From a virus (Duplodnaviria; Heunggongvirae; Uroviricota; Caudoviricetes), in IMG/VR virus record IMGVR_UViG_2737471835_000007: a stretch of 47,347 nucleotides of DNA. One strand, written 5' to 3'. The position numbers and the translations under genes were made by a program. Every line of letters starts with the position of its first letter. Positions within the stretch are counted from its first letter, which is position 1. Of this stretch, positions 1-23,787 are shown piece after piece. The notes under the pieces are model-generated. The model did not search any database. It was not told the origin of the DNA and saw only the letters and a list, made by a program, of their open reading frames with translations.

Positions 1-175
1 CTACGATAACCCACTCTTTTGTTGCCCCATTTTTGCCCCTTTTGCAGCGTTTTGCCCCATTTTTGCCACCGAAAAATGCGAGAATTTCTCAATCTGTAGC
101 CTGCAAATTGCGCCCATGAATTCTTTCCAAGAGAATCAGTTTCGGCTGGAAATCATTCAATACTCACACTAAAAC

Positions 176-210
176 AAAAAGCCCGCTTATGGTGGACTGC
201 AGGCTTTTAG
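176..210 (-). terminator. putative rho-independent terminator 3' of the adhesin gene
   Basis: On the minus strand a GC stem (GCCUGC / GCGGGC, one G-U pair) is followed by UUUUUGUUUU immediately downstream of the stop at 247. Confidence 0.45.
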
Positions 211-246
211 ATTCCGTGATTTAAAAACAATAGTTATAGAAACAAA

Positions 247-1611
247 TTACCAGCCTACAGCAATACCCCCTCCGATTACTGCTCCATCAGTATTATTCCA
301 TGAAGACGATGCACGAATATTGGTGTTTTCATTAAGTTTGTATTGAACACCAACAGCTACTGCATTACCGTTTCTATAGTTACCAACCCCAACGCCGGCA
401 CTAAATGTCTGGTTATTCACATACGGGATATTGGTCATTGCTGCTACGGAAGCAATACCTGCATTAGCTTTTTTAGCATTAGCTTCTATCTTATCATTCA
501 GCTGCTTAAATGTTGAATTTATCTTCCCATTAATTTGGTTAAATTTTGTATCAGTATATGCGAATGATTCTTGTTTTGCTGATTGTATGTTTTTATTAAT
601 AACACCGTTATTTTTCGTAACTTCCTGATCAGTGTATGCCATTGATTCGCTTTTGGCATTATTAATATTCTGATTTATCACAGCATTATTTTTGGTAACC
701 TGCTGATCTGTATATGCCAGTGATTCATTCTTAGCATTATTAATATTCTGATTTATCACAGCATTATTTTTGGTAACCTGCTGATCTGTATATGCCAGTG
801 ATTCATTCTTGGCATTATTAATATTCTGATTTATCACAGCATTATTTTTGGTAACCTGCTGATCTGTATATGCCAGTGATTCATTCTTGGCATTATTGAT
901 GTTTTGATTAATTACGGTATTATTTTTAGCTATCTCATTCCCAGTATAATCTTTCAGTTGCTTAACGTTAACACCATCAGTATCCTCAGTACCTGCGGCA
1001 ACATGGGTCAATTGTCGATTAGTATTACCCGTCCCAAAAGATACACTATACTCTCTGTCAGTTGTACTTCCCCCGCCGATGGCAACACTATTATTATGTT
1101 CAGCCACACTCTGTGAGCCTAGTGAGATGGCATTTTCTGCATTAGATGTAGCCCCTACACCAATAGCTAATGTATCTCCTGCAGTCGCCTGGGCGGAGGA
1201 ACCAAATGCAACACTGTTTTCCCCGGTTGCTTTAGACGCAGCACCTACACTTGTAGAATTAGCGACTGCCTCACTACCCGCACCATTTGCTATAGCTGAA
1301 TCACCGTTTACTTTACTAAATGAACCAATGGCTACCGAGTTATTTCCAACAACATTTGCATTTGCGCCAATAGCTGACGATGAGTTACCTTGAGATGAAG
1401 AATATGAACCAATTGCAGTATTATAGGCTCCTTCGGTTTTTGAAACAGCGCCAATTGTTGTAGAAGAAGAACCTGAAGCATTTGCATATGCACCAATAGC
1501 TGTCGCATTACTATCAGTTGCCTGGCTATTATCACCGGCATTATAAGAATTATATGCATAAGAATTTGCTGAAACTGTAAATATAACAGAGGCTACAAAT
1601 AGTTTTTTCAT
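247..1611 (-). CDS. trimeric autotransporter adhesin (YadA-like; possibly Eib-like prophage-borne adhesin)
   Basis: Signal peptide MKKLFVASVIFTVSANSYA; NSVAIG/SVAFG head repeats; neck-like RQLTHVAAG...GVNVKQL; four 26-aa stalk repeats; C-terminal YadA-type anchor ending ...GGGIAVGW. Start chosen at MKKLF (ORF extends to 1653). Confidence 0.8.
   Translation of the reverse strand: MKKLFVASVIFTVSANSYAYNSYNAGDNSQATDSNATAIGAYANASGSSSTTIGAVSKTEGAYNTAIGSYSSSQGNSSSAIGANANVVGNNSVAIGSFSKVNGDSAIANGAGSEAVANSTSVGAASKATGENSVAFGSSAQATAGDTLAIGVGATSNAENAISLGSQSVAEHNNSVAIGGGSTTDREYSVSFGTGNTNRQLTHVAAGTEDTDGVNVKQLKDYTGNEIAKNNTVINQNINNAKNESLAYTDQQVTKNNAVINQNINNAKNESLAYTDQQVTKNNAVINQNINNAKNESLAYTDQQVTKNNAVINQNINNAKSESMAYTDQEVTKNNGVINKNIQSAKQESFAYTDTKFNQINGKINSTFKQLNDKIEANAKKANAGIASVAAMTNIPYVNNQTFSAGVGVGNYRNGNAVAVGVQYKLNENTNIRASSSWNNTDGAVIGGGIAVGW
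607..918. repeat. 78-bp in-frame tandem repeat, about 4 copies, in adhesin stalk
   Basis: Near-identical 78-nt units at 685-762, 763-840, 841-918 with a diverged copy upstream; encode repeated NNAVINQNINNAKNESLAYTDQQVTK. Confidence 0.85.
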
Positions 1612-2407
1612 AGAAATGACGTATGTTAAATAGATTGAAAAGATAAGATTCAAATCAATTAAATGACGCTTTAAAAATAAGCGGCAGGATTTTATTCATC
1701 TGATAAAAATAGCGCAAGAGTTGTCTTATATGGAATATTCAGATAAGTCTTATTGAAAAAAACGGTATAACAAATACATAACATTACAGCCATTATAAAT
1801 ACATTATAAAAATTACAGAGATATTTAATTAAATCCAAAGCATTTTTTCAATATGGATTTCGAAGAACTTGTTATAGTACATTAATCAATCAATTATTGG
1901 TATTTCGCTCACTGTTCATATAGTTTTAATACATCAATGCATAAGAACATTTTCTCATTCATAAAAGCGATAAAAACTGTTGTACCTTATATTGTTAATG
2001 TTTGGTAACAAAGACAAATCCAACAAGGCATTGATCATCCCCTATGATACCCATAGAAAGAATTATCTGAAATATAATAACGATATAAAGTATATTATTG
2101 CTAATGAAACTATATGATAGCTTCACATTCAGCAATACCTGCTCAACCTTATCTCTGGAAATGAACATTGCTAACTTTCCTACTCCTTAATCGTTCTCCC
2201 AGAGCGCATCATCCACACCGACAATCCCCTCAGGCATCAGCCAGGTGACATTTTCCGCTAATGGGCTGGTTCAGAGATAAATAGTGCGTCCCCGGAAGCC
2301 AAGTCAAAGAGCATTTTTCCCCTGTGACCTTCAACGGCTACTTACTGTTTAAAAACAGCTACGATGCCAGCATAGATACTCTTGAATACGATGTACTACG
2401 TTTTTTC

Positions 2408-3138
2408 TTATTCTGGACTGAACTCCCTAACCGGCTTCAAATCCAGGAGATTGCTCAGTTCCTCTTTCATTTCACGCTGATGACGATAAATCTCATTATT
2501 GCGATCAACCTGCGCCATAGCTGCAGCCAGCTCCTCCAGTTCCGTCATCGACAGTTTCACCTGCTGATTATCAGCATCACTCCATGTCATAACGTCCCAC
2601 TGCCCTGAGTTAGCCCCTGCAGCCATTACCACCGGGTAAAGGCGGGCCAGCGAGTCGGGGCCGCCATTCCAGGTGTGTCCGTTCCATTCGAATGTGAACG
2701 GCTGCGCTTCCTGTTCTGTGCGCCACACCTCGATTTCCCGCTTTCTGGCATCCTTTCCCACGGCGATAAGTTCTGGCGTGACGGTGAACGCAGGGCTGTC
2801 CAGTGGCGCTTTTGTTTTCGTCTCGTCCATGACGGTTTTGACAGCCTTTGGCGTGGCTGCCAGTACTTCGCTGTCGTTGTCTGTATCACTACAGAGTTGC
2901 GCCAGACCTTTTTTGTCGTGGAAGCATTGCTTCCCTTCAGATCATCAACTATCCATTGCGCCTCGTCCCTGTGCTGTTTCGCGCTCTGCTGCGCCTGCAC
3001 CACAGTTTCCTGTCACCACGTCGGCAACTGTGCGCATCACACCTCTGAGGTGTTTACCCGGGATTTCAGAGTTATGTGGCATCCGTACATGGGGATGCCT
3101 GCGCCATCAATCAGCGCACCTGATATCACTACAGACAT
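2408..3138 (-). pseudogene. side tail fibre (Stf)-like remnant disrupted by frameshifts
   Basis: ATG at 3138 gives MSVVISGALIDGAGIPMYGCHITLKSRVNTSEV then a stop; the reading continues in two other frames (VVQAQQSAKQHRDEAQWIVDDLKGSNASTTKK, then after the T6 run at 2908-2913, GLAQLCSDTDNDSEVLAATPKAVKTVMDETKTKAPLDSPA...). N-terminus and the LAATPKAVK.VMDET..KAPLDSPA motif resemble lambdoid Stf as recalled. Confidence 0.5.
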
Positions 3139-3161
3139 AGTTTTTCTCGCGATAAATTAAA

Positions 3162-3707
3162 TCAGGAAGAGGCTTCCAGAGAGACGGGCCATTCAATGGC
3201 GTTGTATGAGGATTTATCAGTGATGGTGCTGAAATCCATCGCCTGCAGCGATTTCGCGTAAATGCGGTACGCTTTCAGCTTCTCCCTGTCGTCGTCACTG
3301 ATTAATCCCAGCAGCAGGTCTTTTTCCCATTCGCTGGTCATGATGCTGACCCGTTGTAACAGGGCATCGCGCTCATCTTCCGCTTTAAGTTTGTAGTCGA
3401 AGACAAATTTATCGTCGCGGTAAAACCAGTAACCAGGCACGGTAATACGGCGGTTAGCGGTAATATCAGGAACTTCAATAACACTGGCGTTACGGGGTTC
3501 AATGCCTGTCACATCCTTACCGACCCATACCACGCGCCCGTCTCCGGTGTAAACCATTTTTATGGTGTCACTGGCAAAATTTTTCAGCTCTTCATACCAG
3601 TTTTGGTCATCTTCCGAAAAAAGCCAGGTGATACCATGTTGTTTTGTCATCTGATATTGTTCTGCGGTTTTCGGATTGCCTGCAGTAATATTTTTTAAAT
3701 GCAACAT
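3162..3707 (-). CDS. tfa: tail fibre assembly protein (Tfa chaperone)
   Basis: 181 aa directly after the fibre gene; C-terminal ...KLKAYRIYAKSLQAMDFST...IEWPVS typical of Tfa. Confidence 0.8.
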   Translation of the reverse strand: MLHLKNITAGNPKTAEQYQMTKQHGITWLFSEDDQNWYEELKNFASDTIKMVYTGDGRVVWVGKDVTGIEPRNASVIEVPDITANRRITVPGYWFYRDDKFVFDYKLKAEDERDALLQRVSIMTSEWEKDLLLGLISDDDREKLKAYRIYAKSLQAMDFSTITDKSSYNAIEWPVSLEASS

Positions 3708-3709
3708 TG

Positions 3710-5263
3710 TTAAACACTCGCCACGTTATACCAGGTGCCGTTAATCAGTTTCTGAAGCGGTCGGTAATACACGCCGTTGACGTTATCCGCTGAATTTTTA
3801 CCAGTATCCGATATCGATATCCCTGACAATCCGTGTCCCGCAGGAGCGTGATATGTCCAAGAGATTACATTGCTGCCAGGTTTGTAATACATTTCGGAAC
3901 CATAGCGCACATCCTGCACGCCGCCATTTCGCTGCTGATAACGGGCATCGAAATTTCCATAGTTTGATGGGGTCATCTGTCCGTTTACAGCGAATGTGAT
4001 ACTGCCATCGGTATTTCTCTGGCTGTAAAAATGCCAGCCGGAATCATCACCAAGCTCTGCAACTACAGGTCGGGATGAATTACCCCATAAATTAAACGTT
4101 GCGTTTTTCGTGGAGTTGTTGGCGCTGGATAACGTGAATTTTTTAGCATTTCCGGCCTGAATATTTTTTAACGCTATCGCCACACCATTCTGGAAACGAA
4201 ATACATGCTGTCCATTCGCATAAACATCCAGAATGCCGTCGCCGTTTTGTTTTATACCTGTATCGTTATCCCCGAAAGCAATTGAGTTTCCGCCCAGCGC
4301 GTTCTGAACGCCGATACCCAGTGCACCATTGACCTGAGAACCACCGCCAACAGACACTTTATGCGACATGGATATCTCTCCTGTCCGCAAATTAATGGTG
4401 AGCGGACGCAGGGGACCAATATCTCCATTCTCGCCCTGACCTTCACTAGTAGGGATAAGGTGCAGGCACTCTTCAGAACGGCGAAAAATAAGGCCAAAAG
4501 CCTCGTTAAAAATCCTCAATGCATTAACACCACGTATTTTCAGCTCCCCGGTCATCAAATCACCAGATTTTTTTACATATCGCAGATCAAAATCTGAATA
4601 GATATTGCCGGGGTTTATCACACTGAAATAGCTTTTCTCGCTATCAAGAAGGCAAATCAAAGGAATACCCTTAATGATATCATTCGCTACCAGCTCGGAC
4701 TTGTTCCCCTTATAAAGTGGGAACGTACCAAGAACCTTTCCGCCTAGTGTTAGTTGAAGTGTCGCCGCGTTGGTATTGTTCTGAACGGGGAAAACTATAA
4801 TCGGGGTTCGTAGCGTCCAATCTGTACCTCCATTAACAAAAAACGTCGAGGGAAGTTCCAGCGTCAGTGCGTTTGCAGTGCCACCAGTAACACCCGCAAT
4901 ATAATGACCGCTCTGAAGCTGCGCTATCTGTACGAAATAGTTTTCCGAACCACGCGTGGCAAAGTTAGCCACAACATCATTAAGGGACCAACCTTTCGCG
5001 GTTGTTCCTTCCTGCCCACGAATGACTTTCAACACATCACCGCTTACCGATACCAAGTGACAAATCTCAAATGCAGACTCTTTATTATCGGTAAGCGTAA
5101 TTTTTGCATAGACGCGTTGCCCGTTCGATTTATTTTCAAAATCGGCAGAAAGCAATTTTGCAAATTTAGCCCCTGTACCGGGCATTACCGGAATATCAGT
5201 CTGAATCGTGGTGATATCACCAGCCAGTGCTGAAACAACGTTATTGCCGAACCCAAGAATCAT
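3710..5263 (-). CDS. tail fibre protein
   Basis: 517-aa Gly/Asn/Ser-rich protein upstream of tfa and downstream of baseplate genes. Confidence 0.7.
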   Translation of the reverse strand: MILGFGNNVVSALAGDITTIQTDIPVMPGTGAKFAKLLSADFENKSNGQRVYAKITLTDNKESAFEICHLVSVSGDVLKVIRGQEGTTAKGWSLNDVVANFATRGSENYFVQIAQLQSGHYIAGVTGGTANALTLELPSTFFVNGGTDWTLRTPIIVFPVQNNTNAATLQLTLGGKVLGTFPLYKGNKSELVANDIIKGIPLICLLDSEKSYFSVINPGNIYSDFDLRYVKKSGDLMTGELKIRGVNALRIFNEAFGLIFRRSEECLHLIPTSEGQGENGDIGPLRPLTINLRTGEISMSHKVSVGGGSQVNGALGIGVQNALGGNSIAFGDNDTGIKQNGDGILDVYANGQHVFRFQNGVAIALKNIQAGNAKKFTLSSANNSTKNATFNLWGNSSRPVVAELGDDSGWHFYSQRNTDGSITFAVNGQMTPSNYGNFDARYQQRNGGVQDVRYGSEMYYKPGSNVISWTYHAPAGHGLSGISISDTGKNSADNVNGVYYRPLQKLINGTWYNVASV

Positions 5264-5886
5264 TTTTGAATCACCGTTGTTGCATAAGAATAAATAAAAG
5301 GGAGTTTTACATATTTCTGGTCAATGGCATCTTTCAGAAAATAGCCTATACCATCACCATATTCTGGTATATGAATAGAAAAAACACTGTCCGACACAGT
5401 CACGCTCACATCAAAAGTGTGCTGCAACGGCGGGTCTATTCCGTTTTTCCCATGAATGAACCGTGCCACACGGCGCTTTAACCAGTCAATGCAGAAATGC
5501 GAACCGTCAGCCTTATAAAAATTCCAAGTTAATATTCGCTTGAAATAATCATCCGGAACATACGATGCCTGCCCCGGAACATAATTCCGCATTGCCGCAT
5601 AAGGGATTGTATTGTATTCAATGGTATCGTATGCGCCGCGTGCAATAGCCTCCTCGGAAACCTGTAGTAAAGGCCTTTCAACGCCATAAATCCCGAGAGC
5701 AATCCAGTCCAGCAATTGCCCGGTTATTGATTCCGATGTCCAGCATGGCAATGCCAGATTGTTGAGTGAATCGAGGTATTCCTGAGCAATTTCATTGTAT
5801 GCATCAAAGAACGCAACAACATTCGGATCATCTCTGTACTGCACAAACGGATAAGCAGGGAGAATTTTTTCAGTCAGATATTGCAT
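5260..5886 (-). CDS. tail/baseplate protein (gpI-like position)
   Basis: ORF in the tail operon between the J-like gene and the fibre gene; start placed at MQYLTEKILP. Confidence 0.5.
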   Translation of the reverse strand: MQYLTEKILPAYPFVQYRDDPNVVAFFDAYNEIAQEYLDSLNNLALPCWTSESITGQLLDWIALGIYGVERPLLQVSEEAIARGAYDTIEYNTIPYAAMRNYVPGQASYVPDDYFKRILTWNFYKADGSHFCIDWLKRRVARFIHGKNGIDPPLQHTFDVSVTVSDSVFSIHIPEYGDGIGYFLKDAIDQKYVKLPFIYSYATTVIQK

Positions 5887-7096
5887 ACTTGTTAACTTGA
5901 ACCTGTGATGCCACTGTCGAAAAATAGGAATAGGTATCGCCATAAACCAGGCTTGTGTCTTTTGCCGGAAGAACAATATGACCATTAATGCCAATGCTCA
6001 CACTGATTGTTGAGATCAACGTCGCATCAACCAGCAACCTGACAGAACTGGTAAAAATATCCTGGATACGCAGAAGATTTATCGGGTGTCCGACTTCAAT
6101 TGAATTGATGTAATCAGCAACGTTTTGCTGCACAGCCATAGCAATACCCGCCGGATCAACATAATCATCAGACACCGTGTTCCAGGTGATTAGCACCATG
6201 ACGTTTTGTGATGACGGGATAACGAACGGCACCTGATAAACGTCCGGCGAAACGGTTATTGAAACCGTGCGTTTTTCCACTGCCGCACCGGATGGATTGC
6301 TTACATCGTTGGTCAGTTTCGAAATATCCGGTACAGATTTGTAAATCGCATAAGCCACATCATACGGATCACCGCCACCAACAACCGCAACCCATTTCCC
6401 CAGCGACGACTGCCGGAAAGAAATCAGGTTTTCTCGCACACCGCTTACTGATTTGAGCATCGCTTTATAGCAATCCGGTGTTCCCTGCACACCAAACATA
6501 CCGGACTCCATGACTTCGGCGCGGTAAGATGCCCACGTCTGCGCCTCCTGACCTGGCATCCCTGCGGTAAGGTTCGTGCATTTTACAGGCTGGTCTTTTG
6601 GTACTGAGGTAATAACCTGCGTCACAGTCCCTTCCGGTACAGCCCATGAGCCTGACGTTGTGGCCACACAGTAGACTGGTTCAGTCTGCCCACTTTCCGG
6701 CACCACCGTATCGCGGGAAACTGCATACTGGTAGTTGCCATCACCGACAACAAATCCTTTAGGGATACCAAACCCCGGCAACGCCTCAAATACCACGTAT
6801 ACCGCCGTATTTGTACTTAATCCCTTCTGTGCTCCATAAATGTTTCCGAGTTGCATCAGTAACGGAATATTTGCGCCGTATGGGCTTACGGAGTTAATAA
6901 GGTCCACCCGCGCCTGGTCTATTAATGCCAGCGCCCCGACTGCCGTGCTGGCAAGGTCAGTAATAAGCCCCGCCGGAAGGTTGGCTGTATATCCAGGTAC
7001 TTTTTCAGCAACTCTGATGATAAGATTTGCAAGCAAATCATTGGGTGGCGTAGGCTGCGCCCCCGCACTGGTCATAGTAATTGGTATTTCTGACAT
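5870..7096 (-). CDS. baseplate J-like protein
   Basis: 408 aa, size and position typical of baseplate J/gp47-like proteins; GGAG ribosome-binding site before the ATG at 7096. Confidence 0.6.
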   Translation of the reverse strand: MSEIPITMTSAGAQPTPPNDLLANLIIRVAEKVPGYTANLPAGLITDLASTAVGALALIDQARVDLINSVSPYGANIPLLMQLGNIYGAQKGLSTNTAVYVVFEALPGFGIPKGFVVGDGNYQYAVSRDTVVPESGQTEPVYCVATTSGSWAVPEGTVTQVITSVPKDQPVKCTNLTAGMPGQEAQTWASYRAEVMESGMFGVQGTPDCYKAMLKSVSGVRENLISFRQSSLGKWVAVVGGGDPYDVAYAIYKSVPDISKLTNDVSNPSGAAVEKRTVSITVSPDVYQVPFVIPSSQNVMVLITWNTVSDDYVDPAGIAMAVQQNVADYINSIEVGHPINLLRIQDIFTSSVRLLVDATLISTISVSIGINGHIVLPAKDTSLVYGDTYSYFSTVASQVQVNKYAISD

Positions 7097-7136: not shown

Positions 7137-8297
7137 TTATTCAACCTCTTCTAAACTGCTCACTCTGGACCCTCGGCGGAAATTATCATCATTTTTAACA
7201 TACTCGTATGAATCCAGAATCAAACCAGATATGCGAAGTATATCTTCCGGATTAGTTATATGTATCCTTTTACCATCCGTATCAAGTCGAGCTCGTCTTA
7301 TTTCATTCAACTGAACTTCACTAAGCGAAATAGGTAAAGTTATAAATGAAGATTTTTTATCATAAAATCTTAACAGCCATCTATTAGTTTTACCATTCAA
7401 TAGCACACCAAAATATGACTCAGTATCTTTATATTCTATATTATCTTCTGTTTGTATGATTTGTTTTACCCTTTCAAATAGCTCCAATTCTTTGGCTGTG
7501 GTTATTATGTTGGGGTTTTCTTCATCAACAATGGCGTTATTAACTTGTGTATCCGTTGCATCATTTTCTTTAGTTTGCTCTACCGGTTGTGTAGATAGCC
7601 CGGAAACCACCATTGCGCTAACAGCGCGCTCAACGGCCTGTTTAACTAATGGAGTCACGAACTCAAGAAATCTCTGATTAAGTTGTCTCTCAATATTTGA
7701 ACGACTAGCAACATATCGAACAAACTCCAGATCAACTTCACGAAGACTAGAACTGATTGTTTTAGTAAATGAATTCAAATAAACACTTTCTTCAGCCAGT
7801 GTCCGTAAAGCCTCTGGTTTGAATTTATCATAACGAAAACGAAATAATTGTGTAATATCGGAGTGAGTTAGAGAATCCATTCTTATTTTTAAAAACGGCG
7901 TTGAATCCATTATGTTTTTTTGTTTCAAATCCGTAAAAAAACGCCATTCAACACCATTTGTAATGGCTGATATAGTAACTTCCGGTGTTGAATTAAAATA
8001 TCTTGATAGCTGTGGGCAGTGATTATCAATTTGTTCTGAAAACGATTTCGCCTCAATGAACATCACAGGAACATCATGACAAAATAAAGCGTAATCAACC
8101 CGTTCATTAGCCTTAACCCCGGGGAAGTCAGCACTATACTCAGCTTTGACTTTTCTTGGATCATACGGAGTAAAACCAAGAATATCTAGTAATGGCATAA
8201 TGAGTGCTTGTTTTGTCGTTTCTTCAGTTGTACAAAACACCCCCATTTTTGCAACATGCTCTGTGTGTATTTTTAACTTATTTGCAAAATTTTCCAT
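7137..8297 (-). CDS. PD-(D/E)xK nuclease-domain protein (type I restriction enzyme HsdR N-terminal-like), moron in tail module
   Basis: 386 aa from MENFANK (GGAGGAG ribosome-binding site). N-terminal ...ERVDYALFCHDVPVMFIEAKS...NGVEWRFFTD matches the D...(D/E)xK core of HsdR-N-like nucleases; C-terminal ~200 aa unassigned. Locally AT-rich, with its own upstream region and terminator. Confidence 0.7.
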   Translation of the reverse strand: MENFANKLKIHTEHVAKMGVFCTTEETTKQALIMPLLDILGFTPYDPRKVKAEYSADFPGVKANERVDYALFCHDVPVMFIEAKSFSEQIDNHCPQLSRYFNSTPEVTISAITNGVEWRFFTDLKQKNIMDSTPFLKIRMDSLTHSDITQLFRFRYDKFKPEALRTLAEESVYLNSFTKTISSSLREVDLEFVRYVASRSNIERQLNQRFLEFVTPLVKQAVERAVSAMVVSGLSTQPVEQTKENDATDTQVNNAIVDEENPNIITTAKELELFERVKQIIQTEDNIEYKDTESYFGVLLNGKTNRWLLRFYDKKSSFITLPISLSEVQLNEIRRARLDTDGKRIHITNPEDILRISGLILDSYEYVKNDDNFRRGSRVSSLEEVE

Positions 8298-8312
8298 GCT
8301 TGTCTCCTCCAT

Positions 8313-8446
8313 GGTAACAATATGTATTTTGCAAATCCGAAATAATATATGTCAATATGCTCCAGCTTAGAAAATTACTCGCCCCCCTAAAATATCTCTC
8401 TACAGCACTCCAAACCAAGGTAAAAGTTTTATCATAAAACTGTGAT
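8313..8446 (-). promoter_or_regulatory. AT-rich upstream region of the moron gene, putative promoter
   Basis: 134-bp AT-rich spacer; consensus TTGACA hexamer on the minus strand at 8355-8350; no convincing -10 identified. Confidence 0.35.
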
Positions 8447-11731: not shown

Positions 11732-13810
11732 TTACCCCGGTATTTGTTGCATTCCGGCGAGTTGTGCCAGTATGTCGGAACCTGGTTTTTGTTGAACGTC
11801 GAGCCTGATTACCTGAGAAGTATTATTTGGTGAATATACGTTTCCCCGGTTCATTGCCAGCGCCCGCATCACATCATCGCCACTTACTGCACGAGCGGCG
11901 TCCCCATTTTCATGGTTAATAATGCCCTGAATTAGCTTTCTCATTATCTCAAAATTAGAACCATCGATTTTCTCCTTAACACCTAATCCGGTGTACTGAG
12001 AGAGATAGCTTTTATAGGACGATGTGTTATTTCCATCAGATGAAGGGGCATAAATATCAATAATCTGATCAATCGTATTTTTGCCGCGTTTCAGGTATAG
12101 CATTACCTGCCGATCTAAGGCAGCAATGCCTTCCAGCATCGTCGGGAAGCTGGCAAAACGGGCATTTGGCCCCGATTCCAAGGTAGCCCCTTTTTGTCCT
12201 GCGAAATTAAGATTTCCGGGATTGTTATTCCTGATCCCTCTGGATAAATATGCAGATCTGTTTACTTGATTTGAAAATCCCTGCAATCCTCCAGGCCAGA
12301 CCTTACCCGGATTGTTTTTTTGCCACTCCTGCACTTCGTTAAAATAATCAAAGTTGAAACGCCCCTCCAGCCCTTTCATTTCCTCACTGGTGGTTGGTGT
12401 GTCATTTGTAGGAATAGCCAATCCAGCTACTGTTCCGGCTGTAGCCCCAAGAAGACTTCCACCAACAACACGGGCGGCAACTCCGGTCGTTGTGGCTGCC
12501 ACAGCACCAACTCTCGATGGTCCAGCAAGTACTGCGGCCCCAAAAAGCCAGGGATGTTCAACCGCAAAACCAACAAACCCGCTAAGTGCCTTAACAACCT
12601 TTGCAACATTTTCGGCAAAATTATTCAGGTCGTTATTAAAATCCGGGCCATTTACATACTTACCAAGTTTATCCAGACCTGTTTCAACATCAGTCAAAAT
12701 TCTTTTAAAGTTCTCACCGTTAAGGAAATTTAGACCAGCATTCTTTACACCATTAGATATTCTAATTAGCTGTACAGAGTTACCCGACATTGCCCCCTGA
12801 AATCCGCTGGTAAGTTGATCCCAGTTATTTTCTAAGTTACTGGTAAGATTCTGATACTGGCTTGTATGTCCAGAGGTGAGCAACGAGTCATTCTGAGAAG
12901 CTCGCGATAAAAACTCTTTGTTGAGTTCAGGTATTTTGTCCTGATATTTGACTAACTGGTTAGCAATACCAAAATTTACCCATCCAAGGCCACGACCTCT
13001 GAGCATGCTCTGAGTAAGTCCGGTTCCCTCATACTCCTTTGCAAGAGCAGCAACTCTTTCTAACAATACAGGAAGATTTTCTGCTGCCCCTTTTTTAGGA
13101 TTTATCCCTAATCCAATTAGCCCGTTGTAAGCAGGATGCTGAGTGTCATTTTGCGCGGCTGCCAGTGTATTGAGCAAATTACCAACACCGGAAAAATAAG
13201 GCGAATAAGTGCTTTCTGCCGCCTTTAACTCTCCTGGAGTTGCCTGCAATTCATCAGCATTTTTCTGTTTCTCTACAACATTACGAGCCATCATGCCAAA
13301 GCCAAACGGCCCGGTAACGCCCATAACCGCAAGTTTTGTCCCCCACGATACGGTGGTTTTAAACAGGTTGTTTAATCTCGAAGTGGTCGTCCGTAGCGTA
13401 GAATTGATCTGCTTGTAAGTTTTCAGCGTCTGTTTGGCGTTTTTCCCCAGCCCGCTGAGGTACTTATCAAACATCGTTTCGCCGCGACCTTTATAGTTGC
13501 TCACCAGCGAATCAGGTGTTTTCCCGCTGCCAACAAAGCGCCATTTTTCATCCCTTAAACGTCCATCAGTGGAAGCAGCCAGAACTGGCGCGGGTGAAGA
13601 TGGTTTCCTGGGAGCCTGATTGGCTTCTCCGCCTGTGGTTGTCTGCCAAGAGCCACCTCCCGGACCGGTATTTGAAGGTATTTTAAGCGGCGTACCGGCA
13701 GGGCCAATCATCAGTCCGTTGCGATACTTTTCAAATATCGCCTCAAGCCGCCTGAGGTGTTCTTCATTAACATCCAGCGTCAGAACTGGCATCTGGTTAC
13801 CAGCCATCAC
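11732..13810 (-). CDS. tail tape measure protein
   Basis: 692 aa, Gly/Ala-rich central segments, located after the chaperone pair and before baseplate genes. Confidence 0.7.
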   Translation of the reverse strand: MMAGNQMPVLTLDVNEEHLRRLEAIFEKYRNGLMIGPAGTPLKIPSNTGPGGGSWQTTTGGEANQAPRKPSSPAPVLAASTDGRLRDEKWRFVGSGKTPDSLVSNYKGRGETMFDKYLSGLGKNAKQTLKTYKQINSTLRTTTSRLNNLFKTTVSWGTKLAVMGVTGPFGFGMMARNVVEKQKNADELQATPGELKAAESTYSPYFSGVGNLLNTLAAAQNDTQHPAYNGLIGLGINPKKGAAENLPVLLERVAALAKEYEGTGLTQSMLRGRGLGWVNFGIANQLVKYQDKIPELNKEFLSRASQNDSLLTSGHTSQYQNLTSNLENNWDQLTSGFQGAMSGNSVQLIRISNGVKNAGLNFLNGENFKRILTDVETGLDKLGKYVNGPDFNNDLNNFAENVAKVVKALSGFVGFAVEHPWLFGAAVLAGPSRVGAVAATTTGVAARVVGGSLLGATAGTVAGLAIPTNDTPTTSEEMKGLEGRFNFDYFNEVQEWQKNNPGKVWPGGLQGFSNQVNRSAYLSRGIRNNNPGNLNFAGQKGATLESGPNARFASFPTMLEGIAALDRQVMLYLKRGKNTIDQIIDIYAPSSDGNNTSSYKSYLSQYTGLGVKEKIDGSNFEIMRKLIQGIINHENGDAARAVSGDDVMRALAMNRGNVYSPNNTSQVIRLDVQQKPGSDILAQLAGMQQIPG

Positions 13811-21589: not shown

Positions 21590-22403
21590 GTTTGCCCTTC
21601 TCCGTTAAAAATTCGTCGGGTAGTTTCTGAGGGGCGTAGATCGGCAGAGCATCGCAACTGCAATAAACCTCCTCCCCGGCAGCAGTGATTTCGTCATAAA
21701 AACCATATACGGGCTTAATAAGCCCCTGCTCCAGCGCCCACGAATCGCGGAGGAGATAAATTTTCTCGTCGCGCTCTTTGTGGTCCTGTCGGTATTTGTA
21801 GCCCGGACGCCGCCAGTTAGAATGCCAGCGCAGAGCAATCGCACCACTCTGAACAGCCAGCAGATACTTAACGTTGCTCGCCAGCTTATGTCCCTGGTCA
21901 ATTGCCACCCGGCGACTGATAAAATCCATATCCTTCACGGACTTCTGAAAACCGGACTTCACTTCCCGGCGATCAATTTCGCTCACCCCGTCAGGCGGAA
22001 TGGACGTAACCCATCCCTGAAAACGCTGTATGGTTTTCTCGATAGCCTGTTCGCGGTTGAGTTTTATCAGGTTGGCACTGGCGAAAATTCGCCTGTCGAG
22101 TTCCTTGCGAAACTCAGGTTTCAGTTTTTCAACAGTGATTTTTTTAGGGCCGTCAGGAGGCTGATCCCGTAATGCCCCGCCGTCGATGACAAGACGGCTG
22201 TAGATAGCGGTGAGATGTTTTCTGGCTACGGTATCATCAGGGGTTTCTCGCTGAGCGGCTACACGGAGTTTCCGGCACCATTCGAGCAATGATTTTTCGC
22301 TATCCCACCCGTGATTTACGTAGTAGTTAACGGCATCCGTCAGAACCTCATACAGCGTCCTGATCCGTTTCTTCTTCCTCCCCGCCCGGCTGGAAATTGC
22401 CAT
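21570..22403 (-). CDS. head morphogenesis / minor head protein
   Basis: ORF following portal; start set at MAISSRAG with AGGAG ribosome-binding site; overlaps portal 3' end. Confidence 0.5.
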   Translation of the reverse strand: MAISSRAGRKKKRIRTLYEVLTDAVNYYVNHGWDSEKSLLEWCRKLRVAAQRETPDDTVARKHLTAIYSRLVIDGGALRDQPPDGPKKITVEKLKPEFRKELDRRIFASANLIKLNREQAIEKTIQRFQGWVTSIPPDGVSEIDRREVKSGFQKSVKDMDFISRRVAIDQGHKLASNVKYLLAVQSGAIALRWHSNWRRPGYKYRQDHKERDEKIYLLRDSWALEQGLIKPVYGFYDEITAAGEEVYCSCDALPIYAPQKLPDEFLTEKGKREFNRA

Positions 22404-23787
22404 CAGGCGTCTCCTGCTTCGGTGGTTCATAATTCGCCAGGGCGTCCACATCAATGATGAGTGGAGCTTCGCCATAGGTCTGCGTGGCATTAACAAGGCT
22501 TGCCAGCCATTCAGTGACGGCGGCACGGTTTTCAGGATCAACCTGTAGCGACACGGCAGAGAAAAGTGCTATCGCCTGTTGAATCACTTTACTGTCGCTT
22601 TCCCGGCGTTTGTCCGGCGACTCCTCCACCAGCTCCTGCCACGTCGCGGTAAACTCGCGCCGCCACTGGTAAAACGTGGTTTTATAGTCCTCGGTTATGA
22701 TGTCCGGGTAATCATTTTTCAGCGACTGATAAAATTCCTCGTTCCAGGCGATGTACTGCACCAGGCGTTCGAAATAATCCATCACAGGTTCAATCTGCTG
22801 GCGTACACCATCGATATACTGGCTGATGGCTTTCGAGTCCTCGGTTCCTTCACCGAAACCATTCGAGAAAGCCTCCTCCTTGATGAGAATCGCGGGAACA
22901 TCGCTACCTGATGCAATATCGGAAATAATGTTGTCGCGGGCGGCATTTAGCGCGCCATCGATGTTTTGTAAATTCAGCGAGGTAACGTCCTCATCCTTCC
23001 CGATACTAAGCACACCTTTATTTTTTGCCTCTTTGACATTTTCCCTTTTTCGTCCCGTGGCGGCAGCCATGATCCCGTCAAGTTTCGAACCATACTGCAC
23101 AACTTTAGCCACCAGCACGCCAGCCTTCTGGCTGACGAGATCATTCGCCTCCATCGTATTGATATAGGATTTCAGGGAATAAAGAACGCGCTGAAACACG
23201 CTTCGCCCGGTGAATCCGAACGATGAACTCTGAAACTCCAGATAAATCGGTGTGCCATTGAAAATTTTCAGTGTGCGTGACGGATGCCAGTCTTTTCCGC
23301 CAATCTTCAGCTTTTTATTGGCTTCCTGGAAAAACGGGCTGTTTGGGTTCTGGTCAGTCACCATCGAACCAGAAGCGTTCAACGGGTCCCACGCGTTGAT
23401 ATACACATCATCTTCTGTCAGTCCGAATGTCGGAAGCGGCTCACGACATGGAACACTGTCGGTGCCCACGCCGATCGCTGCGGCACCGTAGCAACGAGAC
23501 AGAAAAAACAGATTTTTAATCTTCTCGTTAACCTTCATACGTTCCCATACCTCCTGGAAACGCCGCACAACCCGCTCGTCAGGGTCTGTCTCCACGTTGT
23601 ACTGACGCGGCTTACACATCGCCATAAGTATGGGTTTTTCGACAAGTTTTCCGCCCAGAGGATGGAATTGCCACAGCTGCTTACACAATTCATAGCCAAT
23701 GTCGGTTCCCGGCTGAATTTCTTCAGCCTCAAGAATATGCATCAGTGCTGAACCGAGGCCGCCAGTAATCTCGATCTCTGCCATCAA
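22348..23787 (-). CDS. portal protein
   Basis: 479 aa directly after terminase large subunit, acidic C-terminus. Confidence 0.75.
   Translation of the reverse strand: MMAEIEITGGLGSALMHILEAEEIQPGTDIGYELCKQLWQFHPLGGKLVEKPILMAMCKPRQYNVETDPDERVVRRFQEVWERMKVNEKIKNLFFLSRCYGAAAIGVGTDSVPCREPLPTFGLTEDDVYINAWDPLNASGSMVTDQNPNSPFFQEANKKLKIGGKDWHPSRTLKIFNGTPIYLEFQSSSFGFTGRSVFQRVLYSLKSYINTMEANDLVSQKAGVLVAKVVQYGSKLDGIMAAATGRKRENVKEAKNKGVLSIGKDEDVTSLNLQNIDGALNAARDNIISDIASGSDVPAILIKEEAFSNGFGEGTEDSKAISQYIDGVRQQIEPVMDYFERLVQYIAWNEEFYQSLKNDYPDIITEDYKTTFYQWRREFTATWQELVEESPDKRRESDSKVIQQAIALFSAVSLQVDPENRAAVTEWLASLVNATQTYGEAPLIIDVDALANYEPPKQETPDGNFQPGGEEEETDQDAV

What the first reader, a model, noticed from the sequence alone, without database searches (positions are those of the whole stretch)
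247..2407. Prophage-borne trimeric autotransporter adhesin with 78-bp tandem repeats and a long AT-rich upstream region
At the left end, beyond the fibre genes, a YadA-like adhesin carries four near-identical 78-bp in-frame repeats (607-918), a substrate for copy-number variation, and is preceded by about 750 bp of AT-rich non-coding DNA (1654-2407) typical of H-NS-silenced horizontally acquired virulence genes. The architecture is reminiscent of prophage-encoded Eib immunoglobulin-binding adhesins.
Basis: partly seen in the sequence, partly recalled or inferred. Interest (0 to 1): 0.6.

Follow-up and report, generated by a model that had tools for sequence, protein, structure and literature searches.

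The report
Prophage-borne YadA-like adhesin with repeat stalk
The last gene of a complete Rac-type prophage of E. coli encodes an ordinary trimeric autotransporter adhesin whose stalk length varies between strains in 26-residue steps. It belongs to the Saa/'Yal' group rather than the antibody-binding Eib family, and its function has not been tested.

Summary
The core observation holds. Window 247-1611 (-) encodes a 454-aa trimeric autotransporter adhesin (TAA): Sec signal peptide, twelve-turn YadA-type beta-roll head, neck, coiled-coil stalk and four-strand YadA_anchor.

The stalk holds four near-identical 78-bp in-frame units (616-927) plus a fifth, degenerate one (538-615). Otherwise identical alleles in other complete E. 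coli genomes carry 4, 3 or 2 units, so the repeats are real and their number varies.

The gene is the last one before attR of an intact Rac-family prophage inserted in ttcA. It lies behind decayed tail-fibre remnants.

Two corrections:
- Only about 560 bp upstream (1612-2170, 27% GC) is AT-rich. Positions 2171-2407 are 46% GC and hold a tail-fibre-assembly pseudogene remnant.
- The protein is not an Eib. It is 26% identical to EibE, lacks the Eib N-terminal domain and saddle, and has a Saa/Hia-type anchor. Only the locus layout (DUF4376 ORF, AT-rich spacer, TAA) resembles P-EibE.

Its nearest named relatives are the pKY178 'YalA' protein (38%) and Saa (29%). The same gene sits in strain JNEC-KY180, sequenced for the 2026 study that named the function-unknown 'Yal' clades. 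H-NS silencing is untested.

Verdict: an ordinary, uncharacterised member of a known kind.

The parts
247..1611 (-). CDS of the trimeric autotransporter adhesin (454 aa; stop codon 247-249). An alternative upstream TTG start at 1653 would give 468 aa.
   Evidence: ORF list. PGAP start and product name in strain A17. Pfam YadA_head and YadA_anchor. PDB sequence hits to YadA, BpaC, SadA, AtaA and Hia.
1555..1611 (-). Sec signal peptide, aa 1-19 (MKK / LFVASVIFTVSA / NSYA, predicted cleavage before Y20). There is no ESPR extension.
   Evidence: Read directly from the translation. AF2 pLDDT is below 50 for residues 1-13. No signal-peptide predictor was available.
1027..1551 (-). Head: about 12 turns of a 14-residue left-handed parallel beta-roll (aa 21-195) carrying NSVAIGxxS-type motifs.
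   Evidence: Hydropathy autocorrelation peaks at lag 14. AF2 shows strands every 14 residues with pLDDT above 95. Foldseek matches the YadA, BpaC and BoaA heads, TM-score (target-normalised) up to 0.85. Sequence hit to 1p9h at 1e-21.
946..1026 (-). Neck, aa 196-222 (NTNRQLTHVAAGTEDTDGVNVKQLKDY).
   Evidence: Aligns residue for residue with the YadA neck in 1p9h and the SadA necks in 2yo0.
616..927 (-). Four near-identical 78-bp (26-aa) in-frame stalk repeats, KNN[AT]VINQNINNAK[NS]ES[LM]AYTDQ[QE]VT. This is the part whose copy number varies.
   Evidence: Tandem Repeats Finder. Unit-by-unit identities. Alleles lacking exactly 1 or 2 units.
538..615 (-). Fifth, degenerate repeat unit (KNNGVINKNIQSAKQESFAYTDTKFN).
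   Evidence: 16/26 aa and 51-52/78 nt identical to the other units.
433..537 (-). Last coiled-coil segment of the stalk, leading into the barrel (aa 359-393).
   Evidence: AF2 helix 363-393. Aligns with the AtaA and YadA pre-anchor helices.
250..432 (-). Membrane anchor: four beta-strands per chain, ending ...GGGIAVGW. It is the Saa/Hia-type anchor.
   Evidence: Pfam PF03895. AF2 strands 403-452. Foldseek matches to the Hia, AtaA and YadA anchors, TM-score (target-normalised) 0.74-0.86. Comparison of C-termini.
171..208 (-). Candidate intrinsic terminator: 10-bp stem, 12-nt loop, then UGUUUU.
   Evidence: RNA fold -17.2 kcal/mol, z-score -1.8. The consensus scan missed it because of the long loop. 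Evidence is weak.
1612..2170 (.). AT-rich upstream spacer (27% GC). The part 1612-2031 travels with the gene into a different, lambdoid prophage. The promoter is presumed to lie here but has not been mapped.
   Evidence: GC values. blastn homology with RM11911 covers 246-2031 at 91%. No Rfam match. Promoter-like sites are not above chance.
2171..3160 (-). Mosaic of decayed tail-fibre genes between the working fibre/Tfa pair and the adhesin cassette: Tfa pseudogene remnant 2226-2335, chimeric DUF4376 ORF 2408-2905, and a 33-aa Stf N-terminal ORF 3037-3138.
   Evidence: PGAP annotation of the identical locus. Pfam DUF4376. PHROGs tail-fibre families match separate halves of the ORF.

Best explanation
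The gene is a lysogenic-conversion ('moron') cassette at the attR end of an intact Rac-family prophage. It encodes a short, YadA-architecture trimeric autotransporter adhesin of the Saa/'Yal' lineage.

Inferred from established type Vc biology: the protein is exported by Sec. Three chains each contribute four strands to a 12-strand outer-membrane barrel. The passenger is threaded out and forms a lollipop of beta-roll head, neck and trimeric coiled-coil stalk.

Shown here: the stalk is built from 26-residue units with a 26/7 = 3.71-residue hydrophobic periodicity, the signature of a right-handed coiled coil. Unit number varies between strains.

Inferred: each unit should add about 3.9 nm. Unequal recombination or slippage between the near-identical 78-bp units changes how far the head projects.

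Most likely role, by analogy with Saa, YadA and the Eib/Cla proteins: adhesion or autoaggregation, possibly serum resistance, for the lysogen. The gene would be transcribed from its own promoter in the AT-rich spacer, independently of the phage late genes. Immunoglobulin binding is unlikely.
For: TAA identity:
- Pfam head and anchor.
- PDB sequence hits.
- AF2 model, pLDDT 82, with beta-roll, long helix and 4 strands.
- Foldseek top hits are all TAA heads and anchors.

Stalk: 26-aa units and a 3.72 periodicity.

Copy-number variation:
- The A2 allele lacks one unit and the C41/ZYB62 allele lacks two, in otherwise identical proteins at the same prophage site.
- The MB31/STEC309 allele has one unit fewer than the otherwise very similar STEC711 allele in the island context.
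- IMG/VR prophage contigs carry match lengths fitting 4-, 3- and 2-unit alleles.

Prophage cargo:
- Rac genes (intR, xisR, ralR, recT/recE, kilR, racR, ydaS/T) plus a full morphogenesis module.
- The TAA is the last gene before uspF.
- The duplicated ttcA-end att core lies about 90 bp beyond window position 1.

Independent, mobile cassette:
- GC is 38% for the gene and 27% upstream, against 48% for the prophage.
- The same gene occurs at the end of a lambdoid prophage (homology 246-2031), in an IS-rich island, and at 83% aa identity on IncF plasmids.

Lineage:
- Bit scores are 258 to the pKY178 TAA, 108 to Saa and 69 to EibE, and the anchor is Saa-type.
- The gene is 99.8% identical in JNEC-KY180, a strain of the study that defined the Yal clades.
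Against: - No function has been tested for this protein or for any Yal protein (PMC13534694).
- At least 7 of the 29 complete genomes carrying the gene have it disrupted: a +1 frameshift at about codon 51 in the five-genome RM11911 group, and an 11-bp shorter span in two GPEC strains that PGAP annotates as two separate ORFs. Selection for it may be weak or conditional.
- No promoter stands out above chance, and there is no obvious Shine-Dalgarno sequence before the ATG at 1611.
- The AF2 monomer has a low-confidence break at residues 324-361. I read this as a monomer fold-back artefact, because that segment is homologous to the helical units, but I could not run a trimer model.
- The link to 'YalA' is indirect, because the paper's tree figure is not available.
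Confidence: 0.8

Rival explanations
1. It is a member of the Eib family: a prophage-encoded TAA that binds IgG/IgA Fc non-immunologically.
For: The locus layout resembles P-EibE: a DUF4376 ORF, an AT-rich spacer, then the TAA. Both are prophage cargo next to tail-fibre genes. EibD 2xqh is a weak hit, 3e-5 by sequence and 9e-7 by Foldseek.
Against: - 26% identity to EibE, limited to generic head and anchor.
- A stalk-only query does not find the EibD stalk structures at E<=10.
- No N-terminal domain and no Gly/Pro saddle; the stalk 216-393 has 0 Pro and 4 Gly.
- The anchor type differs.
- Kotaka et al. excluded ClaA/ClaB from the Eib family partly because they share under 50% pairwise similarity with Eib proteins, and showed that Cla proteins lacking the conserved Asp do not bind IgG.
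Confidence: 0.06
2. It is a phage structural protein: a tail-associated fibre whose TAA-like C-terminus acts in the virion, as annotated for some virulent phages.
For: tblastn finds 'tail protein' or 'agglutinating adhesin' genes in Proteus, Cronobacter, Salmonella and Erwinia phages that are 35-43% identical to residues ~320-442. PHROGs files two matching families under 'tail'. The gene lies next to tail-fibre genes.
Against: - It has a Sec signal peptide and a complete barrel anchor ending in an aromatic residue.
- It is separated from the fibre/Tfa pair by about 1.5 kb of decayed remnants and AT-rich spacer.
- Its GC content is deviant.
- The same gene sits on IncF plasmids and in an IS island with no phage genes nearby.
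Confidence: 0.03
3. It is silent or decaying cargo: a horizontally acquired gene kept off (for example by H-NS) and drifting towards loss, with repeat variation that is neutral.
For: At least 7 of 29 genomes carry disrupted alleles. The gene is rare, present in 29 of 5426 complete genomes. The upstream DNA is very AT-rich. H-NS is reported to repress another E. coli TAA, UpaG.
Against: The 22 remaining alleles keep an intact frame through a repeat array. All unit-number changes are exact multiples of 78 bp. The head and anchor are nearly invariant across contexts with 90-100% nt identity. The cassette has spread to four kinds of genetic context.
Confidence: 0.1
4. The repeat array is an assembly artefact.
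For: Short-read assemblers can collapse or expand 78-bp repeats. The window's own sequencing method is unknown.
Against: The identical 4-unit array is found in ten independent complete genomes. The 2- and 3-unit alleles each recur in independent assemblies and in IMG/VR contigs. The units carry distinguishing substitutions in a fixed order.
Confidence: 0.01

Closest known systems
'Yal' (function-unknown adhesin-like) TAAs of LEE-negative STEC; YalA of plasmid pKY178 (Kotaka et al., Nat Commun 2026, PMC13534694)
   Same: - Same build: signal peptide, head directly after it (no N-terminal domain), neck, tandem-repeat stalk without a saddle, Saa-type anchor.
- 38% identity over the full length, E = 5e-86.
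- The window gene is 99.8% identical to a gene on the chromosome of JNEC-KY180, where the paper reports a chromosomal YalA.
- It also occurs on both plasmids and chromosomes.
   Different: - The pKY178 protein has different repeat units, 26 residues here against roughly 30 there as read off the alignment, and a shorter head.
- No close copy of the pKY178 gene exists on any chromosome in the complete-genome set.
- Whether the paper labels this exact gene YalA or another Yal could not be checked, because the figure is not held.
Saa, the STEC autoagglutinating adhesin of plasmid pO113
   Same: - Short TAA on a mobile element.
- Stalk made of tandem in-frame repeats; strain-to-strain variation in Saa repeat number is recalled from Paton et al. 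2001, not checked here.
- Same anchor type..AM(T)xIP...GW.
   Different: - Only 29% identity over 365 aa.
- Saa has a ~190-aa non-beta-roll N-terminal region and a single Pfam head repeat.
- Its repeat unit is 37 aa (counted from the translation), against 26 aa here.
- It is plasmid-borne, not prophage-borne.
Eib proteins (EibA, C, D, E, F, G) of E. coli prophages
   Same: - Prophage cargo next to tail-fibre genes, preceded by a DUF4376 ORF and an AT-rich spacer.
- YadA-type head, neck, coiled-coil stalk and barrel anchor.
   Different: - 26% identity to EibE.
- No N-terminal domain and no saddle.
- YadA/Eib-type anchor (LFQPY...NFEF) is absent.
- No match to the EibD stalk that carries the Ig-binding sites.
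YadA of Yersinia
   Same: - Best PDB sequence match, 1p9h at 1e-21.
- NSVAIGxxS head motifs, the same neck, and the lollipop architecture.
- A stalk periodicity above 3.63, implying right-handed supercoiling, as I recall for the 15-residue repeats of the YadA stalk (for this protein).
   Different: - NCBIfam YadA model scores 114 bits against a cut-off of 750.
- The anchor type differs.
- YadA is on the pYV plasmid, not a prophage.
- The repeat unit differs: 26 aa here, 15 aa in YadA (from memory).

Membership tests
Trimeric autotransporter adhesin (type Vc secretion) | C-terminal YadA-like anchor: four beta-strands per chain, ending in an aromatic residue | tested here: met
   PF03895 scores 32 bits against a cut-off of 22.7. 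AF2 shows strands 403-452. Foldseek matches Hia, AtaA and YadA anchors with TM-score (target-normalised) 0.74-0.86. The protein ends ...AVGW.
Trimeric autotransporter adhesin (type Vc secretion) | N-terminal Sec signal peptide | tested here: met
   MKK, then a 12-residue hydrophobic core, then SYA before the predicted cleavage site, read from the translation. No predictor was run.
Trimeric autotransporter adhesin (type Vc secretion) | Passenger made of head, neck and coiled-coil stalk modules | tested here: met
   PF05658 at 60 bits. The neck aligns to YadA and SadA. Helix 216-326 and 363-393 in the model, and a 3.72 periodicity.
Trimeric autotransporter adhesin (type Vc secretion) | Forms a heat-stable surface trimer | not testable with these tools
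   Needs SDS-PAGE of outer membranes or a multimer model. Only a monomer prediction was available.
Eib immunoglobulin-binding proteins | Non-immune binding of IgG/IgA Fc | not testable with these tools
   Biochemical assay required.
Eib immunoglobulin-binding proteins | Sequence relatedness to EibA-H (the 2026 study excluded ClaA/ClaB from the family partly for sharing under 50% pairwise similarity with Eib proteins) | tested here: not met
   26% identity and 69 bits to EibE. EibD 2xqh matches only the head and neck at 3e-5.
Eib immunoglobulin-binding proteins | N-terminal domain before the head, and a saddle between right- and left-handed coiled coils carrying the Ig-binding stalk | tested here: not met
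   The head starts at residue 21. The stalk has no Pro and 4 Gly, whereas EibE has a Gly/Pro segment at 334-366 and a ~120-aa N-terminal domain. A stalk-only PDB search finds no EibD chain. Caveat: the AF2 monomer is uncertain at 324-361.
Eib immunoglobulin-binding proteins | Prophage location beside tail-fibre-related ORFs | tested here: met
   A DUF4376 ORF lies upstream both here and in P-EibE. The gene is inside the Rac-type prophage.
Saa (orthologue) | High identity to Saa, 37-aa repeat unit, Saa N-terminal region | tested here: not met
   29% identity. The repeat unit is 26 aa against 37 aa. The Saa N-terminal 190 residues have no counterpart.
Yal clades (Kotaka et al. 2026) | Falls in the Saa-proximal clades of the EibG-like tree; no N-terminal domain, no saddle; function unknown | tested here: inconclusive
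   The architecture fits. Bit scores rank pKY178 YalA above Saa above EibE. The gene is present in JNEC-KY180. The tree and its labels (Fig. 4A) are not held, so the name could not be confirmed.
YadA (orthologue) | NCBIfam NF033478 above its cut-off | tested here: not met
   114 bits against a cut-off of 750.
H-NS-silenced horizontally acquired gene | AT-rich relative to the host, and bound and repressed by H-NS | tested here: inconclusive
   GC is 27% upstream and 38% in the gene, against 47.5% for the window. The high-affinity motif TCGATAAATT is not enriched, with one 2-mismatch site in 1612-2170. Binding and repression are not testable here.

The most novel reading that the evidence does not exclude
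The adhesin could be a true lysogenic-conversion factor whose stalk length is tuned by selection. Changing the number of 26-residue units would move the head in about 3.9-nm steps relative to LPS or capsule. That could switch adhesion or autoaggregation on and off, or shield outer-membrane receptors from superinfecting phages. It would give an intact Rac-type prophage a variable surface phenotype that spreads between prophages, islands and plasmids.
Probability: 0.1. Interest if true: 0.5.

Novelty: new member of a known kind. Interest (0 to 1): 0.2.

Why it matters
The practical value is modest. The gene adds a well-delimited example of an adhesin cassette (gene plus about 420 bp of AT-rich upstream DNA) that moves between a Rac-type prophage, a lambdoid prophage, an IS island and IncF plasmids. 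Natural 2-, 3- and 4-unit alleles make a ready-made series for testing how stalk length affects TAA function.

It also matters for annotation. Prophage-borne YadA-like genes next to tail fibres should not be called Eib, or assumed to bind immunoglobulin, by position alone.

Nothing here changes current understanding of TAAs or of prophage cargo.

Tried and rejected
1. The large protein search returned no close E. coli relatives. The best hit was a Proteus penneri protein, 55% identical over 62% of the query, probably because low-complexity words swamped the candidate list. Exact look-ups of the 454- and 468-aa forms and of four alleles found nothing. Prevalence therefore rests on the 5426 complete E. 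coli genomes and on IMG/VR.
2. Rfam at a permissive threshold found no RNA family in 1-3500.
3. The promoter and terminator consensus scan was no better than shuffles, 11 sites against 9.5 expected. The promoter remains unmapped.
4. The H-NS motif search showed no enrichment.
5. I tested whether the gene equals the pKY178 'YalA'. It does not (38% identity), and that plasmid gene has no close chromosomal copy. The YalA label for this gene remains an inference.
6. The small ORFs in the spacer (1692-1838 and 1995-2168, minus strand) were judged non-coding. The first is cut by a 39-bp indel and many substitutions in the RM11911 homologue. The second lies across the homology boundary.
7. Supplementary files of the 2026 paper are not held.
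Full report
**What is in the sequence**

The minus strand of 247-1653 is one open frame. PGAP annotation of an identical locus in E. coli A17 starts it at the ATG at 1611 and calls it 'YadA-like family protein', WP_077784021.1, 454 aa.

The translation begins with a typical Sec signal peptide: MKK, a 12-residue hydrophobic core, then SYA before the predicted cleavage site. This is my reading.

Several lines of evidence agree on the family:
- Pfam gives YadA_head (2e-16) and YadA_anchor (1e-7), both above their gathering scores.
- NCBIfam models for YadA, BimA, Ata and EmaA all match, but far below their cut-offs. YadA scores 114 bits against 750. The protein is therefore a TAA but not an orthologue of a named one.
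- The best solved-structure match is the YadA head and neck, 1p9h at 1e-21, followed by BpaC, SadA, BoaA, AtaA and the YadA anchor. EibD 2xqh scores only 3e-5.
- An AlphaFold2 monomer (pLDDT 82) shows a strand every 14 residues from 21 to 195 with pLDDT above 95. It then has a long helix at 216-326 and 363-393, and four strands at 403-452.
- Every significant Foldseek hit in the PDB is a TAA head or anchor.

**The repeats**

Tandem Repeats Finder reports period 78, 4.1 copies, 608-927, 92% matches and no indels. In codon register there are five 26-residue units:

| Unit | Window coordinates |
|---|---|
| 1 | 850-927 |
| 2 | 772-849 |
| 3 | 694-771 |
| 4 | 616-693 |
| 5 (degenerate) | 538-615 |

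Units 2 and 3 differ at one base in 78. Unit 5 matches the others at 16/26 aa.

The hydropathy spectrum of the stalk peaks at 3.72 residues, which equals 26/7. From established coiled-coil theory this is the signature of a right-handed supercoil. I recall the same for the 15-residue repeats of the YadA stalk, which I did not check here. By inference, each unit is seven helical turns, about 3.9 nm.

**Copy number really varies**

The gene occurs in 29 of 5426 complete E. coli genomes.
- Ten genomes carry the same 4-unit allele at 99.6-99.9% identity.
- Strain A2 lacks exactly 78 bp, and strains C41 and ZYB62 lack exactly 156 bp. Their proteins are otherwise 100% identical, and the gene sits at the same chromosomal site.
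- In a different context, MB31 and STEC309 have one unit fewer than STEC711.
- Five IMG/VR prophage contigs show match lengths that fit 4, 3 and 2 units, with the gene at the contig end.

The gene is also often broken. The five-genome RM11911 group has a +1 frameshift at about codon 51 that removes the signal peptide. In two GPEC strains the matching span is 11 bp shorter, and PGAP annotates two separate ORFs there.

**Where it sits**

The window is almost exactly one prophage. In strain A17 the same DNA runs from ttcA through intR, xisR, ralR, recT/recE, kilR, racR and ydaS/T. It continues through lysis, terminase, head, tail and baseplate genes to the tail fibre (window 3710-5263) and its assembly protein (3162-3707). 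The TAA comes last, followed by uspF, ompN and nifJ. This is a full-length member of the Rac prophage family at the Rac site.

A duplicated stretch of the ttcA end, the att core, lies about 90 bp beyond window position 1. The adhesin is therefore the last gene inside the prophage.

Between the working fibre/Tfa pair and the adhesin lie only remnants:
- a 33-aa Stf N-terminal ORF at 3037-3138;
- a chimeric DUF4376 ORF at 2408-2905, whose two halves match different tail-fibre PHROGs;
- a Tfa pseudogene fragment at 2226-2335.

**The upstream region**

GC content by segment:

| Segment | GC |
|---|---|
| 1612-2170 | 27.4% |
| 2171-2407 | 46.4% |
| The TAA gene | 38% |
| Rest of the window | 48% |

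The AT-rich spacer is therefore about 560 bp, not 750 bp. The remaining 240 bp is fibre debris.

Homology with other contexts shows how much DNA travels with the gene:
- The RM11911 lambdoid prophage shares 246-2031, that is the gene plus about 420 bp of spacer.
- The STEC711 island shares 229-1704.
- The IncF plasmid allele shares only 244-1546.

On the downstream side, homology stops essentially at the stop codon in all three.

I could not map a promoter. Consensus sites are at chance level, no Rfam family matches, and there is no clear Shine-Dalgarno sequence. A 10-bp hairpin followed by a U-run at 171-208 is a plausible terminator, with a z-score of only -1.8.

H-NS silencing is plausible by analogy, since H-NS is reported to repress the TAA UpaG (PMC5012682). 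Here it rests on base composition alone, and the high-affinity H-NS motif is not enriched.

**Is it an Eib?**

I retrieved eibE from the P-EibE record AF151676.

The locus layout is similar. A DUF4376 ORF (orf-191E, 36% identical to the window's) is followed by a 358-bp spacer of 32% GC, then the TAA.

The protein is not similar:
- 26% identity, confined to head and anchor.
- EibE has a ~120-residue N-terminal domain and a Gly/Pro-containing saddle at 334-366. The window protein starts its head at residue 21 and has no proline between neck and anchor.
- A stalk-only query finds no EibD structure at E<=10.
- The anchors belong to different types. EibE and an 88%-identical gene in phage PhiR12_3 end ...LFQPY...NFEF, like YadA. 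The window protein, Saa, the pKY178 protein and the Proteus and Klebsiella relatives have ...AM(T/S)xIPYV...GW.

**What it is closest to**

Bit scores rank the relatives as follows:

| Relative | Bits | Identity |
|---|---|---|
| IncF plasmid allele | 692 | 83% |
| Proteus penneri stalk and anchor | 315 | 55% |
| pKY178 TAA | 258 | 38% |
| Klebsiella aerogenes protein | 210 | 37% |
| Saa | 108 | 29% |
| EibE | 69 | 26% |

Kotaka et al. (Nat Commun 2026, PMC13534694) sequenced 13 LEE-negative STEC strains, collected their EibG-like proteins, and named two Saa-proximal clades 'Yal (function unknown adhesin-like)'. They describe Yal proteins as lacking both the N-terminal domain and the saddle. 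They report YalA on the plasmid of JNEC-KY178 and on the chromosome of JNEC-KY180.

The window gene is 99.8% identical to a gene on the KY180 chromosome, in the same prophage context. The single TAA of pKY178 has no close chromosomal copy anywhere in the complete-genome set. The simplest reading is that the KY180 copy of this gene is the paper's chromosomal YalA, or another Yal. I could not see the tree, so this remains an inference.

**Mechanism and rivals**

I take the gene to be a lysogenic-conversion cassette. It would make a short YadA-architecture surface trimer that promotes adhesion or autoaggregation, with a stalk length that recombination between the 78-bp units changes in 26-residue steps.

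What is shown:
- the domain architecture;
- the repeat variation;
- the position at the prophage end;
- the mobility of the cassette.

What is inferred:
- trimer formation and secretion;
- the adhesive role;
- expression from an independent promoter.

The rivals and my estimates are:
- Eib-type Ig binding, 0.06.
- A virion structural role, 0.03. This is suggested by TAA-like C-termini in tail proteins of virulent phages. It is contradicted by the signal peptide, the complete barrel anchor and the plasmid and island copies.
- Silent, decaying cargo, 0.1. This is supported by the broken alleles.
- An assembly artefact, 0.01.

**Verdict**

It is wrong about the Eib family and untested on H-NS.

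This is an uncharacterised member of a known kind. It is already annotated in RefSeq and very probably already listed among the 'Yal' proteins. Interest is low, 0.2.

Noticed in passing
window 22-67 (and L015 432-455 at the attL side of strain A17): There are four to five tandem copies, 10-11 bp apart, of AAA(A)TGGGGCAAA between the adhesin terminator and attR. Two copies of the same motif lie between the att core and intR at the other prophage end. The position and spacing fit arm-type binding sites of the Rac integrase.
   Followed up: partly
window 7137-8312 (-): A 391-aa ORF with a type I restriction enzyme R-subunit N-terminal (HSDR_N) nuclease domain matches phrog_4225 'endonuclease' at 5e-149. 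It sits between baseplate genes and looks like a cargo or defence gene inside the tail module.
   Followed up: partly
window 2171-3160: This is a graveyard of tail-fibre pieces behind the working fibre/Tfa pair: a 33-aa Stf N-terminal ORF, a chimeric DUF4376 ORF whose two halves match different tail-fibre PHROGs, and a Tfa fragment. It suggests repeated recombination at this prophage end.
   Followed up: partly
phage records (e.g. Salmonella phage FSL SP-058 11876-12136, Cronobacter phage vB_CsaP_009 35618-35971, Proteus phage Privateer 82596-82919): Tail proteins of virulent phages carry a C-terminal stretch 35-43% identical to the adhesin's last stalk segment and anchor (residues ~320-442). 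What a TAA-like anchor does in a virion protein was not examined.
   Followed up: no
L014 (Escherichia phage PhiR12_3, PV340552) 5557-7050: A sequenced phage from ECOR13 carries a TAA 88% identical to EibE between two sets of tail-fibre genes. It is annotated only as hypothetical, 'putative adhesin/invasin'.
   Followed up: partly
L002 (RM11911) 8238-8400; H55/H56 (GPEC349-628, GPEC1176): The adhesin gene is inactivated in at least 7 of the 29 complete genomes that carry it. Five have a +1 G insertion at about codon 51. In two GPEC strains the matching span is 11 bp shorter and the gene is annotated as two ORFs.
   Followed up: yes
window 22347-23783 (-): PGAP labels the 478-aa ORF just after the terminase genes, where a portal gene would be expected, as 'anti-CBASS protein Acb1 family protein' in the identical prophage of strain A17. 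The label was not checked.
   Followed up: no
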